A stretch of 44,396 bases of DNA. Origin: Candidatus Vogelbacteria bacterium. GTDB taxonomy: Bacteria > Patescibacteriota > Minisyncoccia > Phycocordibacterales > XYD1-FULL-46-19. Under the pieces are notes generated by a model, which did not search any database, was not told the DNA's origin, and was given only the letters and a program-made list of their open reading frames with translations. The stretch covers positions 1 to 44,396 of the forward strand of contig JBJHBV010000002.1 in the NCBI GenBank assembly GCA_050485705.1, in the 5' to 3' direction. The translations under genes and the position numbers were made by a program. Of the stretch, positions 7,700 to 40,462 are shown one piece after another. Position 1 is the first letter of the stretch. Every line of letters starts with the position of its first letter.

Positions 7700-7763
7700 C
7701 CTTGGTTTGATGTTTATTTTTTGTTACACTGAGTACTAATTAGTAATTAATATTAATTTGAAT

Positions 7764-7976
7764 ATGTTGTTTAAGCATAGTAATAAGAGTGTGGTTATCG
7801 CTTTTGTTTTAGGAATTATTTTTGCTGTCTTTGTGGGGCATGCTTATACTGTTTACCAATTGAGGGCGGTTGTTTTTCAAACTCAAGCCGATTTGGCGGG
7901 AGTAATTCAATTTCTTAATGCTCAAATAGAAGCAGCTCAAGGGGGTCAAGGTTTTGACGCCGGAGGAGAACTGTAA
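7764..7976 (+). CDS. small membrane protein, hypothetical
   Basis: One predicted TM helix. ATG at 7764 lies in frame within the listed ORF. Confidence 0.4.
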   Translation: MLFKHSNKSVVIAFVLGIIFAVFVGHAYTVYQLRAVVFQTQADLAGVIQFLNAQIEAAQGGQGFDAGGEL

Positions 7977-7987
7977 GCCTTTTAAAC

Positions 7988-8014
7988 AAAAACCCCTCTT
8001 TATGAGGGGTTTTT
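7988..8014. terminator. bidirectional intrinsic terminator
   Basis: CCCCTC-TTTAT-GAGGGG hairpin flanked by an A-run and a T-run. Confidence 0.6.
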
Positions 8015-8034
8015 GTTTTGAAAAAAGGCCCCCA

Positions 8035-8373
8035 TCAGGATGGGGGCTCAATGGAGATTATCTCCAGGTTGATCACGCCCTGCTCGACGAAGTCAAGCTG
8101 GACAGCTACCCCTTTTGACACATCAAGGTGTCGTCCGGGGATAAAGGGGCCTCGGTCGGTAATTTCAACTCGGGCGACACGGCCGTTGTTGGAATTACGC
8201 AACCACAGAATCGTCCCGAAGGGGAGTTCTTTGTGAGCTGCTGTGTGGGCGTTCATGTCGAAAATTTCACCATTGGCCATTGTCCGGCCATGGAACTTTT
8301 CGCCGTAGAAGCTGGTGTTCATTACTGCTTCGGGTTCTACGAGAGCCAGAAGCAGAAAAACCGCGGTATTCAC
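8035..8373 (-). CDS. RlpA-like double-psi beta-barrel (DPBB) protein
   Basis: YGEKFHGRTMANGEIF...AHKELPFGT...ITDRGPF motifs. GTG start preceded by AAGGAG. Visibly GC-richer than its flanks. Confidence 0.75.
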   Translation of the reverse strand: MNTAVFLLLALVEPEAVMNTSFYGEKFHGRTMANGEIFDMNAHTAAHKELPFGTILWLRNSNNGRVARVEITDRGPFIPGRHLDVSKGVAVQLDFVEQGVINLEIISIEPPS

Positions 8374-8531
8374 TACTTGTCTTCTCCTTGTCTAGGACTT
8401 GGTTGTGGACCTGTTTTTGGCCCAAGTAAAAATGCGATGAAGTCTCACTGCACTTTTATTTGAGTCACTTTTCCTCTTATAGAGTACTCAACTAAAAAAT
8501 ATTTGTCAAATTTTGATATAATTTAAAGCAA

Positions 8532-34681: not shown

Positions 34682-35626
34682 TTACGACCAAATCTGCTTG
34701 AGAGCCATTGCTACAGCTGTGGGGTCGTGGTACAGCTCTCCCTTGCTGGTGGTCTCCAGTAGCTCAGCCGAGAAAACCCTCGGCTCTTCCACTGGAGGAA
34801 GGAGTTGAGTTTTCCCTTCTAGGGTGTACTCAATCATCCGCTCTTCCGGTATCGGGGAAGTGTTGCACAAGATTGCGTCACACTCCTTCCCGAGTCTCTT
34901 TTCTATCTGGTGTATGAAGTCACTGGTGGTGTAGTTGTCTGTCTCTCCTTGCTTAGTCATGATATTCATGACAATGATGATTTTGGCACGAGAATTGATG
35001 ATTGCTTCCTTCATGCCGGTTGGAAGTAATACGGGGAGAATACTGGAATACAGATCACCCGGGCAGATGATTATCCAGTCGGCTTTACTGATTGCTCGTA
35101 CGGCCGTATCGTCAGCACAGATTTCCGGCTTCAGATAGATATCCTCTATGGCGTGAACATCAGGATGCCACAGGGGATTTTGCGCAATCAGGTCGATGTT
35201 GGTCTCACCCTCCATGCTGCCAATTTTGAGTTTGGCACACAACTTGGAAGGAACACGAGAGATTGGTATGACCCGGTGAGGTTTGATTCGGCACAGCTCG
35301 AAGAAGATATCGAGCGCCATGTCGGGCTCAGTTACTTGCTCCAGCGCCAAAAGAAGAATGTTTTTGACCGAGTGGCCATGCAGACATCCCTCCTTGTAGC
35401 GATAAAGTAAGGCTTCAGCCAGTGTGGGGTTAGGGGACAGAGCGACAACACATTTGGTTAAGTCGCCCAAATACCCTAAACCATTGTATTCGTTGGCCAG
35501 TTTGCCTGTTGACCCTCCTGAGTCGGTAATGGGGCAGATCCCCGTGATTGTTATGTCTTGTAGGGTTTTCAGTCCTTTAAGGACTTGAGCGTGGCCCCCT
35601 CCGCCACCGATAGTGACAATGTTCAT
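34682..35626 (-). CDS. YvcK/CofD-like (UPF0052) family protein
   Basis: MNIVTIGGGGGHAQVLKGLK N-terminus, with GAGAGGAG upstream of the ATG at 35626. Visibly GC-richer than neighbouring genes. Confidence 0.7.
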   Translation of the reverse strand: MNIVTIGGGGGHAQVLKGLKTLQDITITGICPITDSGGSTGKLANEYNGLGYLGDLTKCVVALSPNPTLAEALLYRYKEGCLHGHSVKNILLLALEQVTEPDMALDIFFELCRIKPHRVIPISRVPSKLCAKLKIGSMEGETNIDLIAQNPLWHPDVHAIEDIYLKPEICADDTAVRAISKADWIIICPGDLYSSILPVLLPTGMKEAIINSRAKIIIVMNIMTKQGETDNYTTSDFIHQIEKRLGKECDAILCNTSPIPEERMIEYTLEGKTQLLPPVEEPRVFSAELLETTSKGELYHDPTAVAMALKQIWS

Positions 35627-35723
35627 TACAAAACTCCTCTCTATTTTTATTATTACCACCTTGGGATGATTAAATCAATCTCAGCTGGATTTTTCCCTAT
35701 TTTTACGCTACAATCACCTGGTA

Positions 35724-38700
35724 ATGAAAAATCCTATTAAGAAAAAACCTGTTTTTGGAGGCGGAGGAGGAATGCTGGGACAGTTTGGAGGTCAGGTTGT
35801 TATGACCCTTTTGATTTTTATTGTTATTGTTGCTCTCTACGCTTCTATTATTGAACAAAGACAAGAAACAGAAGAAATCTCAATTTCTGCTCTGGCTTTT
35901 GATGTTTCTGAGGGGCTAGTTTCTAGTATCGTGGTTCGGGGTGATGAACTTACTGTGACTTATGTTGATGGAACAGAGAGGACTTCTAAAAAAGAGGCTG
36001 ATATTTCTTTGTCCGAAACTCTGAACTTATATGGAGTAGAGAGAGAAGCTCTGCAAGCTTTAGAGATAGAGATAAAAAGTCAAACCGGATTTGCTTTTTG
36101 GGCTTTAAATATTCTACCCTTTCTGATTCCTATTTTGTTTATCCTTATTTTCTTTTGGTTTATTTCTCGTCAGGTTAGAGGAGCTTCTATGCAAGCATTT
36201 TCTTTTGGTCAATCTAGAGCAAGGATTATTGATCCTAATGACAAAAATCAGAAAGTTACTTTTAAGGATGTAGCGGGAGTTAAAGAAGCTAAAGAGGAGC
36301 TTTTGGAAATTGTGGACTTTTTGCGTAACCCAAAGAAATTCTTGGAAATTGGAGCTCGTATTCCCAAGGGTGTTTTAATGATTGGTGGCCCCGGAACTGG
36401 AAAATGTATTGTTGGTGATTCTTTAGTTTTGACAAACAAGGGGGTGATGGAGATTAAAGACATTCCTACTTATTATGCCGTTGATGAAAAAGACAGAGTG
36501 TCTGGTGCGGTTTTGCCAGCTATAGACGTGGAACAATCAATTAATGTTTCAGTACCCGCTTCTCATTGGTATGATTTAGGTGAGCAAAAAACTCATCGTC
36601 TAACTTTGAAAAATGGTTTAGAGCTTGAAGGGACTCCGGAGCATCCGGTTTTGGTTATGGGTGATGATGGTCAGTTAAGGTTTAAACATCTATCTGAATT
36701 GACAATTGGTGATTCAGTGGCTGTTTCTTTTAATAATCAAGCTTTTGGTCGTCATAAAGGGGTTGATGTAAAAACAGCCTATATGATGGGTCTTTTAACT
36801 GGTGATGGTAATTTAAGTCATGCCAGTCGGGTTGGTTTTACCACTACTGATCGTGAATTAGAAACAGTCTTTACTTCTTTTGTTCAAACTTATGATGAGT
36901 CTTGTAAGGTTAGTCGTGCTTCTGATGGTATTACTCAAGTAGCTACTTCTTGGAAGATAAAGAAGCATTTATACGATAACGGAATGTCATACTTGTTATC
37001 TTATGACAAAGTTATTCCACCGGCTATTTTACAAGCACCAAAAGAGATTGTGGCCGGTTTTTTGAGAGGACTTTTTGATAGTGATGGTTCTTTTGAGCGT
37101 TATGTGGTTAGTTATTCCACTGTTAGTAAAAAACTGTCTGATCAGATGATGGTTTTGTTGTTGAATTTCGGCATTAAGCCCAAGAGAAGGATTAAAATGC
37201 CGGTTGGATATAGTCATCCTCGACCGGTTTACGAAATTATTATCAGCGGAGAATCTTTAGAAGTTTTCCGAAAAGAAATTGGTTTTGGCTTAGGAAGAAA
37301 GAAGGAAAGATTGGATAATTATCTGACTACTCACAAAATAGGTAACACTAATGTTGATGTTTTTCCTTATATCAGTAATTTGGTCTACGCTTGTTGGCAG
37401 GTGATGAGTCAATCTGGTAAGAGCCAAGAGACAATATCTAAGCTTGTCTACAAAGTAAAGACCAGACAAAGAATTTCCAGATCTTCTCTTGGTTTGTTTG
37501 TTAAGGCTTTTGAAGAGAGTGGTTGTCATCACCCTGATTTTGATTATTTGAAAAGATTATTAAATCTAAATCTTCTCTTTTCTCCGGTCGTTAAGAATGA
37601 AACCGGACAAGCCAGAGTCTATGATTTAACTTAACCCAAGATTCATTCTTTCATCTCTAACGGTATAGTTTCTCACAACACTCTTTTGGCTCGCGCGGTA
37701 GCCGGGGAAGCCCATGTTCCTTTCTTTTATTTATCCGGCTCAGAGTTTGTGGAAATGTTTGTGGGGGTGGGTGCTTCACGAGTGAGAGATTTATTTAAGA
37801 TGGCGAAAAAGGCTGCTCCAGCCATTATCTTCATTGATGAAATAGATGCTATTGGCCGTCATCGCGGATCCGGTATGGGTGGAGGAAATGATGAACGTGA
37901 ACAGACTCTTAATCAGATATTGGTGGAGATGGATGGTTTTGAACCTAATGAAAAATTAATTGTAATGGCTGCCACCAACAGACCAGATGTCTTGGATCCG
38001 GCTCTTTTGCGTCCCGGGCGTTTTGATCGTCGGGTCGTGTTGGATCAACCTGATATTAAAGACCGAGAAGAAATTTTAAATATTCATGCTCGCAAGAAAC
38101 CTTTGACTGAAGAAGTAGATTTGCGAGTAATTGCAGAACGAACCCCCGGTTTTTCCGGAGCAGATTTGGCTAATGTGATGAACGAAGCTGCTATTTTGGC
38201 TGCCAGAGAAAACAGGAAAAAAGTTAGTCAATATGATTTTATTCGTTCTGTAGAAAAAGTAATGTTAGGTCCGGAAAGAAAGAGCCATATCTTATCAGCC
38301 CATGAGAAAAAAATTACCGCTTATCATGAAATAGGTCATGCCTTGGTTGCTTCTGTCTTGCCGGATTGTGATCCAATTCACAAGGTGTCCATTATTTCTC
38401 GTGGTCATGCTGCCGGTTATACTTTGAAATTGCCATTTGAAGACAGAAAACTTAACTCTCGTAAAGAATTTTTAGATGATATTGCTATGTCTTTAGGAGG
38501 GTATGCTACCGAGAAAATGATTTTTGGTGATATTACTACCGGTGCTTCCAATGATATTTCTGTTTCTACTCGTTTGGCCAGATCAATGGTCACTCGTTAT
38601 GGCATGAGCGATAAGGTGGGGCCGGTAGCCTATGATGTGTCTGAAGGCAAGTTTATGCCTGTTCCTGAAAATAGACCCAGTGCGTCAGAAGCTATGCAAT

Positions 38701-38933
38701 CTTTGATTGATCAAGAAGTAGCCAATATTATGAGCGAGGCTCTTAGGCGAGCTAATGAAGTTTTGGTTAAACACCGCAAAGCTTTAGAGGAGATGTCGGC
38801 TGAATTGATGAAAGTGGAAACATTAGAAAGAGAAGATTTTGAAAAGTTACTCATTCTTCATGGTATTAAACCAAAACAAAGACAAGAAAATTCATCTCAA
38901 CCAACCTTAGGGATTGATGAAGAAGAAAAATAA
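35724..38933 (+). CDS. ftsH: ATP-dependent zinc metalloprotease FtsH, interrupted by an intein (exteins 35724-36404 and 37680-38933)
   Basis: GGPGTGK at 36384-36404 joins [11 protein letters not shown] at 37680 to rebuild the Walker A loop. Downstream are DEIDA, the second region of homology, and HEIGHA zinc site. Confidence 0.9.
36405..37679 (+). mobile_element. intein with two-motif LAGLIDADG homing endonuclease domain and an in-frame TAA at 37632-37634
   Basis: Begins CIVGDSLV and ends NGIVSHN, followed by Thr+1. LAGLIDADG motifs are MGLLTGDGN and [10 protein letters not shown]. Confidence 0.85.
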
Positions 38934-39723: not shown

Positions 39724-40392
39724 ATGGCCAGAAAAGAGGACAAACAAAAAGCCTTAGAGCTTCGTAAAAAAGGATATAGTTATTCTCAAATTAAAGAAAA
39801 GCTTGGTTTGAGTAAAAGTACGCTGTCTGGCTGGCTTTCTGATTATCCTTTATCTGCTAAAAGAATACAGATGTTGCGTGATAAAAACCCTAGAAGGATA
39901 GAAAAATTTCGCAATACTATGAAAAAAAAGAAAGATGAGCGCTTAGAAAAAGTTTATGATAAAGTAGGAAAAGATATCGGGGTTTTCAGTAAAAAAGATA
40001 TTTTTGTAGCTGGCTGGTTTCTTTATTGGGGAGAGGGTTTAAAGACTTCTTCACCCACTTTTGGTTTGTCTAATACTGATCCAAATATGATTAGATTTTT
40101 CTTGAGATGGGTTGAGATTCTTGGAGTGCCGAAAGAAAAAGTGACAATAACTCTGCATTTATATTCAGATATGGATATAAATAAAGAAATTTATTTTTGG
40201 TCAAAAGAATTGTCTTTGCCTAAAAGTTGTTTCCGTAAGCCAGTTATAAAGAAGACCAAACTATCAGGTCTGACTTATAAGAATGGTTTTGGACATGGTA
40301 CTTGTCATGTGCGTATTTACAACCGTGATTGGGCGGAGTATATTCTAAAGGGTTTACAATATATCAGAGAAGTCGAAAGCAAGCGCCTATAG
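39724..40392 (+). CDS. HTH-domain protein with LAGLIDADG-like C-terminal region
   Basis: N-terminal KKGYSYSQIKEKLGLSKSTLSGWL helix-turn-helix. AGWFLYWGEG resembles a single LAGLIDADG motif. Confidence 0.55.
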   Translation: MARKEDKQKALELRKKGYSYSQIKEKLGLSKSTLSGWLSDYPLSAKRIQMLRDKNPRRIEKFRNTMKKKKDERLEKVYDKVGKDIGVFSKKDIFVAGWFLYWGEGLKTSSPTFGLSNTDPNMIRFFLRWVEILGVPKEKVTITLHLYSDMDINKEIYFWSKELSLPKSCFRKPVIKKTKLSGLTYKNGFGHGTCHVRIYNRDWAEYILKGLQYIREVESKRL

Positions 40393-40457
40393 CTCAATTG
40401 GTAGAGCACCCAGCTTATACCTGGGAGGTTTTCCTGGTTCGAGTCCAGGTGGGCGCA
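40383..40457 (+). tRNA. tRNA with anticodon UAU (Ile, reads AUA)
   Basis: Acceptor GCGCCTA/TGGGCGC. D-arm GCTC-AATTGGTA-GAGC. Anticodon arm CCCAG-CTTATAC-CTGGG. T-arm CCTGG-TTCGAGT-CCAGG. Seven-nt variable loop. CCA not encoded. Confidence 0.8.
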
Positions 40458-40462
40458 CTAGA

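What the first reader, a model, noticed from the sequence alone, without database searches (positions are those of the whole stretch)
36405..37679. LAGLIDADG intein in the FtsH P-loop has an in-frame TAA 15 codons before its C-terminal splice junction
Seen directly: FtsH is broken exactly inside the Walker A motif. GGPGTGK ends at 36404. The insert starts with Cys (CIVGDSLV...), contains two LAGLIDADG motifs and ends ...[12 protein letters not shown]. The host frame resumes at 37680 with [11 protein letters not shown], which rebuilds GPGTGKTLLA. The 5' ORF, the insert and the 3' ORF share one reading frame, but codon 37632-37634 is TAA (...ARVYDLT[20 protein letters not shown]...). That places the stop in the block F/G region needed for splicing. 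Read literally, the cell makes a membrane-anchored N-extein plus a dead intein. The AAA+/protease part could then only start at the TTG at 37686, and it would lack the P-loop lysine. TAA is the normal stop for most genes here, so recoding is not expected. Possible explanations: an assembly or sequencing error, recent inactivation of ftsH (normally indispensable), stop-codon readthrough, or a naturally split intein with a very short C-fragment. I see no ATG or Shine-Dalgarno sequence for such a fragment.
Basis: partly seen in the sequence, partly recalled or inferred. Interest (0 to 1): 0.75.

Follow-up and report, generated by a model that had tools for sequence, protein, structure and literature searches.

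The report
Stop codon inside FtsH P-loop intein
The essential membrane protease gene ftsH carries an ordinary self-splicing intein of a type common in Patescibacteria, and this copy has one premature stop codon that looks like a one-off defect or sequence error, not a new mechanism.

Summary
ftsH (35724-38933, +) is split inside Walker A (GPGTGK|T) by a 425-codon LAGLIDADG intein (36405-37679). Codon 37632-37634 is an in-frame TAA, 15 codons before the HN|T junction.

The intein is a normal member of a large allelic family. More than 100 uninterrupted FtsH+intein proteins and about 90 DNA loci, mostly Patescibacteria, carry it at the same site. At the aligned codon they have Val (84), Ile (4) or Leu (1). 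Only the window has a stop.

Every other splicing and endonuclease motif in the window's copy is intact, as are the 15 codons after the stop and the whole C-extein. No other broken gene was noticed in the 44-kb contig.

TAA ends 39 of the 50 other ORFs, so recoding is excluded. No ATG, GTG or TTG lies between the stop and the junction, so a split intein has no support.

The lesion is therefore a single, very young, unprogrammed defect. It is either a consensus error or minor variant, or a real nonsense allele reached from a Leu TTA codon. The public data reachable here could not separate these two.

The intein is a new member of a known kind. Interest is low.

The parts
35724..36404 (+). ftsH N-extein (227 codons): TM segments, FtsH_ext domain and the start of the AAA+ module up to the Walker A Lys (GGPGTGK, 36384-36404)
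   Evidence: It is 82% identical to the intein-less P0069.
36405..37679 (+). Full-length LAGLIDADG intein, 425 codons including the TAA
   Evidence: Pfam Intein_splicing and LAGLIDADG_3; NCBIfam intein_Nterm and intein_Cterm. It is a precise insertion relative to L096. It aligns end to end with about 90 allelic inteins.
36405..36443 (+). Block A, with the Cys1 nucleophile ([13 protein letters not shown])
36618..36656 (+). Block B ([13 protein letters not shown]), with the TxxH motif (T77, H80) invariant in the family alignment
36780..36815 (+). LAGLIDADG motif 1 ([12 protein letters not shown])
   Evidence: Aligned to PI-PfuI 1dq3.
37059..37094 (+). LAGLIDADG motif 2 ([12 protein letters not shown])
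37617..37664 (+). Block F ([15 protein letters not shown]), interrupted by the stop
37632..37634 (+). In-frame TAA (intein codon 410), replacing the conserved Val/Ile/Leu of block F. It is followed by C, a +4 base seen after only 2 of 39 genuine TAA terminators.
37665..37682 (+). Block G (IVSHN) plus the Thr+1 nucleophile of the C-extein
37680..38933 (+). ftsH C-extein: the rest of Walker A (TLLA), Walker [10 protein letters not shown] (37824-37850), the AAA lid, and the M41 protease with HEIGH (38325-38339). It is intact.
   Evidence: It is 91% identical to P0069.
37686..37688 (+). First canonical start codon (TTG) after the stop. It lies 2 codons past the splice junction. The public gene call P0173 (415 aa) starts here.

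Best explanation
This is an ordinary, mobile, full-length LAGLIDADG intein. It sits at the Walker A site (GPGTGK|T) of the primary, syntenic ftsH gene and is one allele of a family widespread in Patescibacteria.

Normally the 1,069-residue precursor would fold and the intein would excise itself: Cys1 N-S acyl shift, transesterification to Thr+1, cyclisation of Asn425. That restores the P-loop and yields a 644-aa FtsH.

The TAA at 37632 is not part of that mechanism. It is a one-off, very young lesion at the conserved block-F Val/Leu codon. The likeliest path is a single T-to-A change in a Leu TTA codon. I think it most likely does not represent the working gene of the living population. It would then be a consensus or base-call error, or a minor deleterious variant captured by the assembler, and the functional allele carries a sense codon.

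Shown: the intein's identity, its insertion site, the uniqueness of the stop and the intactness of everything else. Inferred: that the stop is unrepresentative, and the TTA intermediate.
For: 1. Canonical intein. Profile hits exceed curated cut-offs, and blocks A, B, F and G and both LAGLIDADG motifs are intact.
2. A large family at the same site. 76 genome loci and 16 metagenome loci carry it, and more than 100 uninterrupted 1,030-1,130-aa FtsH+intein proteins exist.
3. The stop is a singleton. In 90 aligned instances the codon is GTN 84 times, ATH 4, CTA 1 and TAA 1, the window. No relative has an in-frame stop.
4. Leu is tolerated at that position in a related intein, L088 (FTLPETHSF). TTA to TAA is one step.
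5. The lesion is isolated. The 15 codons after the stop still encode a consensus block F/G. The C-extein is 91% identical to an intein-less orthologue and keeps Walker B and HEIGH. No other broken gene was noticed in 44 kb.
6. The locus is the orthologous ftsH: infC-smpB-tmRNA-pgl-ftsH-truB synteny with L096.
7. About 5% of public copies of this gene carry assembly-type defects. These are frameshifts in L001, L041, L054 and L056 and an N gap in L002. Such lesions are therefore common in MAG data.
8. Only 2 of 9 window proteins found in the collection also list Logan as a source (the one contig retrieved, L095 from run SRR31311414, is 100% identical to the window). This suggests low coverage or microdiversity, conditions in which consensus errors survive.
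Against: No reads or independent assembly of position 37632 could be reached, so the claim that the stop is unrepresentative is untested.

From any Val codon the change needs two substitutions, which is unusual for a simple base-call error unless the true codon is TTA.

A neighbouring 3.3-kb stretch is 100% identical to an independent Logan contig. That argues for a generally accurate short-read assembly, in which a k-mer carrying TAA must exist in at least some reads.
Confidence: 0.5

Rival explanations
1. The TAA is real and is the dominant allele. The primary ftsH has just been knocked out. The cell makes a membrane-anchored 636-aa N-extein plus truncated, non-splicing intein, and possibly a useless P-loop-less C fragment. 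It survives because FtsH is dispensable in this episymbiont, because a second ftsH exists elsewhere in the genome, or because the lineage is a dead end.
For: The contig otherwise looks accurate, with 100% identity to an independent Logan contig over 3,266 nt and no other lesions noticed. A de Bruijn assembly only emits k-mers present in reads. The stop is two substitutions away from every Val codon seen in relatives, which fits evolution through Leu better than a single sequencing error from Val.
Against: FtsH is near-universal, and this is the syntenic primary copy. There is no second lesion anywhere in 3.2 kb, so any inactivation would be extremely recent.
Confidence: 0.33
2. The TAA is real but leaky. 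Near-cognate readthrough of UAA-C inserts Gln, Lys or Tyr at block-F position 410. A small fraction of ribosomes completes the precursor, which splices and supplies a low level of FtsH.
For: The stop is followed by C, a +4 base seen after only 2 of 39 genuine TAA terminators in the contig. Everything downstream remains perfectly in frame and conserved.
Against: UAA is the least leaky stop in bacteria (established knowledge). No stimulatory structure is present (z = -1.65). No relative shares the stop, so it is not a conserved regulatory device. A polar residue in a conserved hydrophobic beta-strand position may impair splicing.
Confidence: 0.1
3. It is a naturally split intein with a 15-residue C fragment. 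The N piece ends at the TAA. A separately initiated [16 protein letters not shown]-extein trans-splices with it.
For: Only the geometry supports this. The frame is preserved and block G plus Thr+1 are intact downstream. This organism does not rely on SD sequences, so the lack of an SD is not an objection.
Against: There is no ATG, GTG or TTG between 37635 and 37679. The first start (TTG 37686) lies beyond the junction and drops the intein C fragment and Thr+1. Among the ORFs of at least 90 aa in the contig the first possible start codon is ATG for most. The promoter-like match ending at 37625 is not above chance, and a leaderless transcript there would not begin with a start codon. The split point lies inside block F, and none of about 90 relatives is split there.
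Confidence: 0.03
4. TAA is reassigned or suppressed in this organism, through a variant genetic code or a suppressor tRNA.
For: None beyond the in-frame stop itself.
Against: TAA ends 39 of the 50 other ORFs, which abut the next gene normally. The only tRNA in the window is Ile(UAU).
Confidence: 0.01

Closest known systems
Allelic FtsH Walker-A inteins of Patescibacteria and some Acidobacteriota. Examples: P0043, P0044 and P0046 (Paceibacterota / Patescibacteria MAGs); L008 (Campbellbacteria CG22); L012 (Nomurabacteria GW2011_GWA2_40_9).
   Same: They share the insertion point GxGK|T, a length of about 425-435 aa, Cys1, TPEH, two LAGLIDADG motifs, the VYDFTVP..HSFISNG..SHN|T ending and Thr+1. 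Intein identity is 55-70%.
   Different: All have Val, Ile or Leu at the position of the window's TAA and are uninterrupted. Their exteins are only 68-72% identical to the window's. The window's nearest exteins (80-91%) lack the intein.
PI-PfuI (PDB 1dq3) and the Pyrococcus horikoshii CDC21-1 intein (PDB 6rpq)
   Same: HINT splicing domain plus LAGLIDADG endonuclease (PI-PfuI, E = 9e-9). The block F/G motif VYDLQVPEHHNFIANGIFVHN of 6rpq matches [20 protein letters not shown].
   Different: They are archaeal, sit in other host proteins, and have low overall identity. Neither has an internal stop.
Split inteins: natural DnaE-type (C fragment of about 36 aa covering all of block F) and engineered S11-type (C fragment of about 6 aa). 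This comparison is from my own knowledge and was not tested here.
   Same: A short C-terminal intein piece attached to the C-extein could in principle complement a long N piece.
   Different: Known split inteins have independently initiated genes, and none is known to me to split inside block F. Here no start codon precedes the C piece.
Ordinary pseudogene or assembly lesions in MAG copies of the same gene (L001, L041, L054, L056, L002)
   Same: Each is a single disruptive lesion in an otherwise conserved ftsH-intein ORF.
   Different: Those are frameshifts or an N gap. For example, L001 appears to lack one base (inferred: one A) in the TCAAAATTG run. The window has a substitution-type nonsense codon.

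Membership tests
Intein (HINT protein-splicing element) | N-terminal nucleophile (Cys/Ser1) and a block A match | tested here: met
   Cys1 at 36405. TIGR01445 intein_Nterm scores 34.4 bits, above the 24.5 cut-off.
Intein (HINT protein-splicing element) | Block B TxxH | tested here: met
   T77-P-E-H80, invariant in the family alignment.
Intein (HINT protein-splicing element) | Block F/G with a terminal His-Asn, followed by a Cys/Ser/Thr +1 residue | tested here: met
   ...[12 protein letters not shown]|T. TIGR01443 scores 25.6, above 15.6. Pfam Intein_splicing scores 54.3, above 35.8.
Intein (HINT protein-splicing element) | In-frame insertion in a conserved host site, whose removal restores the host protein | tested here: met
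   The spliced sequence scores 793 bits on TIGR01241 (cut-off 600). The empty site is seen in L096.
Intein (HINT protein-splicing element) | Uninterrupted translation through both splice junctions, needed for cis-splicing | tested here: not met
   TAA at 37632-37634, intein codon 410 of 425. As written, the copy cannot cis-splice.
Intein (HINT protein-splicing element) | Demonstrated protein splicing | not testable with these tools
   Needs expression and a western blot or mass spectrometry.
LAGLIDADG homing endonuclease (double-motif) | Two LAGLIDADG motifs with the conserved acidic residues | tested here: met
   GLLTGDGNL and [11 protein letters not shown]14528 scores 79.3, above 22.5. Aligned to PI-PfuI.
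LAGLIDADG homing endonuclease (double-motif) | Sporadic distribution consistent with homing | tested here: met
   The five nearest exteins (80-91% identity) lack the intein. Intein-bearing FtsHs are at most 72% identical in the C-extein.
Split intein | Separately translated N and C pieces, each with its own start codon | tested here: not met
   There is no ATG, GTG or TTG in 37635-37679. The first start lies beyond the junction.
Stop-codon reassignment or programmed recoding | The codon is not used as a terminator genome-wide, or a conserved recoding signal is shared by homologues | tested here: not met
   TAA ends 39 of 50 other ORFs. No homologue has the stop. No significant structure is present.
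FtsH (TIGR01241 ATP-dependent zinc metalloprotease) | TM-FtsH_ext-AAA-M41 architecture with Walker A, Walker B and HExxH | tested here: met
   This holds for the in-silico spliced protein only.

The most novel reading that the evidence does not exclude
The TAA is genuine and fixed, and the cell still obtains active FtsH. One route is stop-codon readthrough that throttles the amount of splice-competent precursor. The other is trans-splicing between the 636-aa N piece and a non-canonically initiated 15-residue intein C fragment fused to the C-extein. The second route would be, to my knowledge, the first natural split intein broken inside block F.
Probability: 0.05. Interest if true: 0.8.

Novelty: new member of a known kind. 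Interest (0 to 1): 0.25.

Why it matters
As it stands this is mainly an annotation and quality-control point. The locus should be annotated as one ftsH gene with an intein and an internal stop (pseudo, or needing read verification), not as two genes.

There is a modest wider point. FtsH Walker-A inteins are very common in Patescibacteria, and I found no paper in the searchable library that describes them.

An intein in an essential P-loop ties host viability to intein integrity. If the stop proved real and dominant, it would be a natural case of an intein lesion killing its host gene. It would also raise the question of whether FtsH is dispensable in these reduced episymbionts.

Tried and rejected
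- **Independent copies of the site.** I made exact-protein look-ups of the 636-aa and 415-aa fragments, alternative starts of the C fragment, truB with two starts, and P0173. None was on record outside the hidden source contig. RecG led only to a Logan contig covering 40068-43333, which does not reach ftsH.
- **Degenerate DNA pattern across the stop in metagenome contigs.** It returned 16 relatives, none from the window's population.
- **Genome-collection scan.** It returned 76 relatives with a best intein identity of 68% (73% for the partial N-terminal match L037). The source genome is not among the species representatives, so a second ftsH could not be sought.
- **First impression that relatives are also broken near the C terminus.** This was rejected. 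P0001/L001 carries a frameshift in an A-rich run (TCAAAATTG), consistent with one missing A. P0005/P0010 are split by an N gap. The stop in L084 is the natural terminator.
- **Ribosome hopping or frameshifting on the TTAAC-TTAAC repeat.** Rejected by inspection. Matching take-off and landing codons are 5 nt apart and would leave the frame.
- **Internal promoter or leaderless restart.** The -10-like TATGAT at 37620-37625 is not above chance and no start codon follows it.
- **Readthrough-stimulating RNA structure.** None was found (z = -1.65).
- **Compositional evidence of recent import.** None was found. Intein GC is 36.9%, against 37.7% and 41.3% for the exteins.
- **Literature.** No paper in the library describes an FtsH intein. 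The top hits concern other inteins.

Full report
**1. Observation**

The window is one whole 44,396-bp contig from an NCBI MAG. Its GC content is 39% and its gene content is typical of Patescibacteria: rpsL-fusA-tuf-S10/spc operon, secY, infC, smpB, tmRNA, ftsH, truB, recG.

ftsH starts at 35724. GGPGTGK ends at 36404. A 425-codon insert runs from Cys at 36405 to Asn at 37679. Thr at 37680 resumes [11 protein letters not shown]. All three parts share one frame. The only interruption is TAA at 37632-37634, 15 codons before the C-terminal junction.

**2. What the insert is**

With the stop masked as X, the insert passes the curated thresholds for Pfam Intein_splicing and LAGLIDADG_3 and for NCBIfam intein_Nterm and intein_Cterm. 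The in-silico spliced protein scores 793 bits on TIGR01241 FtsH, cut-off 600.

The nearest solved structures are PI-PfuI and the P. horikoshii CDC21-1 intein. The block F/G of the latter (VYDLQVPEHHNFIANGIFVHN) mirrors [20 protein letters not shown].

An intein-free orthologue lies in the same gene order (infC, smpB, a tmRNA-sized gap, pgl-like gene, ftsH, next gene overlapping its end). It shows the exact empty site ...GGAAAA|ACACTT.... This is therefore the primary, syntenic ftsH carrying a precise intein insertion in Walker A.

**3. The family**

- A scan of species-representative genomes found 76 loci with a homologous intein. Most sit at the same FtsH site, a few in other host genes. They are mostly Patescibacteria, with some Acidobacteriota and others.
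- A degenerate pattern across block F found 16 metagenome contigs.
- A protein search found more than 100 uninterrupted FtsH+intein proteins of 1,030-1,130 aa, plus versions of about 1,500 aa with a second intein.
- The window's intein is at most 70% identical to any of them.
- The five FtsH proteins closest in extein sequence (80-91% in the C-extein) have no intein. Intein-bearing FtsHs are at most 72% identical in the C-extein.
- This sporadic distribution is what a mobile homing intein produces. Intein GC content matches the host's.

**4. The stop codon in context**

Across 90 aligned instances, some duplicated between collections, the codon at the TAA position is GTN 84 times, ATH 4, CTA once and TAA once, the window. 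tblastn of the whole precursor against all loci shows no in-frame stop in any relative. The single flagged case, L084, is the gene's natural terminator.

Four relatives have frameshifts and one has an N gap. About 5% of public copies therefore carry assembly-type lesions.

In the window everything else is intact:
- Cys1, TPEH and both LAGLIDADG motifs;
- the Asp and His of block F, and His-Asn-Thr+1;
- Walker B and HEIGH.

No other broken gene was noticed in the contig. The lesion is thus single and evolutionarily very young, or not real. A related intein in a different host gene has Leu (CTA) at this position. A Val to Leu (TTA) to stop (TAA) path, with one final T-to-A step, is plausible.

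**5. Programmed explanations tested**

- **Recoding.** TAA ends 39 of 50 other ORFs. This excludes it.
- **Split intein or re-initiation.** No ATG, GTG or TTG lies between 37635 and 37679. The first start, TTG at 37686, lies past the junction, and the public gene call P0173 starts there. That fragment lacks GPGTGKTL and cannot bind ATP normally.
- **The Shine-Dalgarno argument.** It is uninformative, because only 2 of 41 genes here have an SD-like motif.
- **Internal promoter.** The promoter-like hit just upstream of the stop is at chance level.
- **Readthrough.** There is no notable RNA structure. The +4 base C is rare after genuine TAA stops (2 of 39). That is weakly compatible with leakiness, but UAA readthrough in bacteria is normally very low (established knowledge).
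- **Hopping or frameshifting on the TTAAC-TTAAC repeat.** It would not restore the frame (inspection).

**6. Real or artefact?**

I could not reach reads or an independent assembly of the site.

For a real variant: a Logan contig from SRR31311414 is 100% identical to the window over 3,266 nt next door. The contig is therefore generally accurate, and k-mer assemblers only emit sequence that is present in reads.

For an artefact or minor variant:
- only 2 of 9 window proteins found in the collection also list Logan as a source, which suggests low coverage or microdiversity;
- the gene is the primary copy of a near-universal protease;
- lesions are common in MAG copies of this gene.

I put about 0.5 on the stop being unrepresentative (error or minor allele). 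I put about 0.33 on a real, dominant and very recent knockout. I put about 0.1 on a real stop rescued by readthrough, and a few percent on anything more exotic.

**7. Consequence if read literally**

The product would be a 636-aa protein made of the FtsH N-extein (227 aa) and 409 intein residues. It lacks the second half of block F, block G and the C-extein. It cannot perform transesterification or Asn cyclisation, and the gene is a null. Unlike decay of the endonuclease domain, a lesion in the splicing domain costs the host the whole protein. This is why such lesions are normally purged (established intein biology).

**8. Verdict**

The intein is a new member of an abundant but little-described allelic family. 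The stop is a singleton defect, not a mechanism. Interest is about 0.25.

Noticed in passing
window 40383-40458 (+): A tRNA-Ile with a genuine UAU anticodon (ARAGORN; Rfam tRNA 64.8 bits). It is unusual in bacteria, which normally read AUA with a lysidine-modified CAU tRNA.
   Followed up: no
window, upstream of most start codons (e.g. 615, 3644, 8532, 13497, 32328, 35724, 42589, 43703): Only 2 of 41 genes have a Shine-Dalgarno-like motif. Many have a TAnAAT-type -10-like box ending about 6-12 nt before the ATG, which suggests leaderless or very short-leader mRNAs.
   Followed up: partly
L017, L018, L039 and L066 (translated); L020 and L022 show the same ~1.3-kb gap in tblastn only; also ~1,500-aa proteins such as P0047 and P0048: Some relatives carry a second intein in ftsH, about 33 residues downstream of the P-loop site...VGVGA|SVTGDTP...LLHN|SRVRDLF. 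It has Ser1 and Ser+1.
   Followed up: partly
L088 812-858: A closely related intein C terminus (VYDFTLPETHSFISNGFISHN) sits in a different host gene (HN|TGRFSSSDPNLQNIP, which looks like a family-A DNA polymerase motif). It has Leu at the position of the window's stop.
   Followed up: no
L001 2010-2040: P0001 was the best hit of the first, intein-only protein search. It is truncated by a frameshift in an A-rich run (TCAAAATTG), consistent with one missing A, 17 codons upstream of the TAA-equivalent site. The ORF continues in another frame.
   Followed up: yes
window 34682-35659 (-): A CofD-family gene lies on the opposite strand between the pgl-like gene and ftsH. It is absent from the otherwise syntenic intein-less relative L096.
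   Followed up: no
window 7700-8531: An 832-nt stretch between two +-strand ORFs holds a minus-strand ORF (8035-8373) with a DPBB_1 lytic-transglycosylase domain. An overlapping +-strand ORF has no family match.
   Followed up: partly
window 39724-40392 (+): A 222-aa protein with an N-terminal HTH domain (HTH_40/HTH_23) and an unassigned C-terminal part lies between truB and tRNA-Ile.
   Followed up: no
L010 16144-17415; L044 3778-5130; L047 5142-6449: Distant intein homologues (20-24% identity to the window's intein) lie in another gene within 10 kb of ftsH in three relatives.
   Followed up: no
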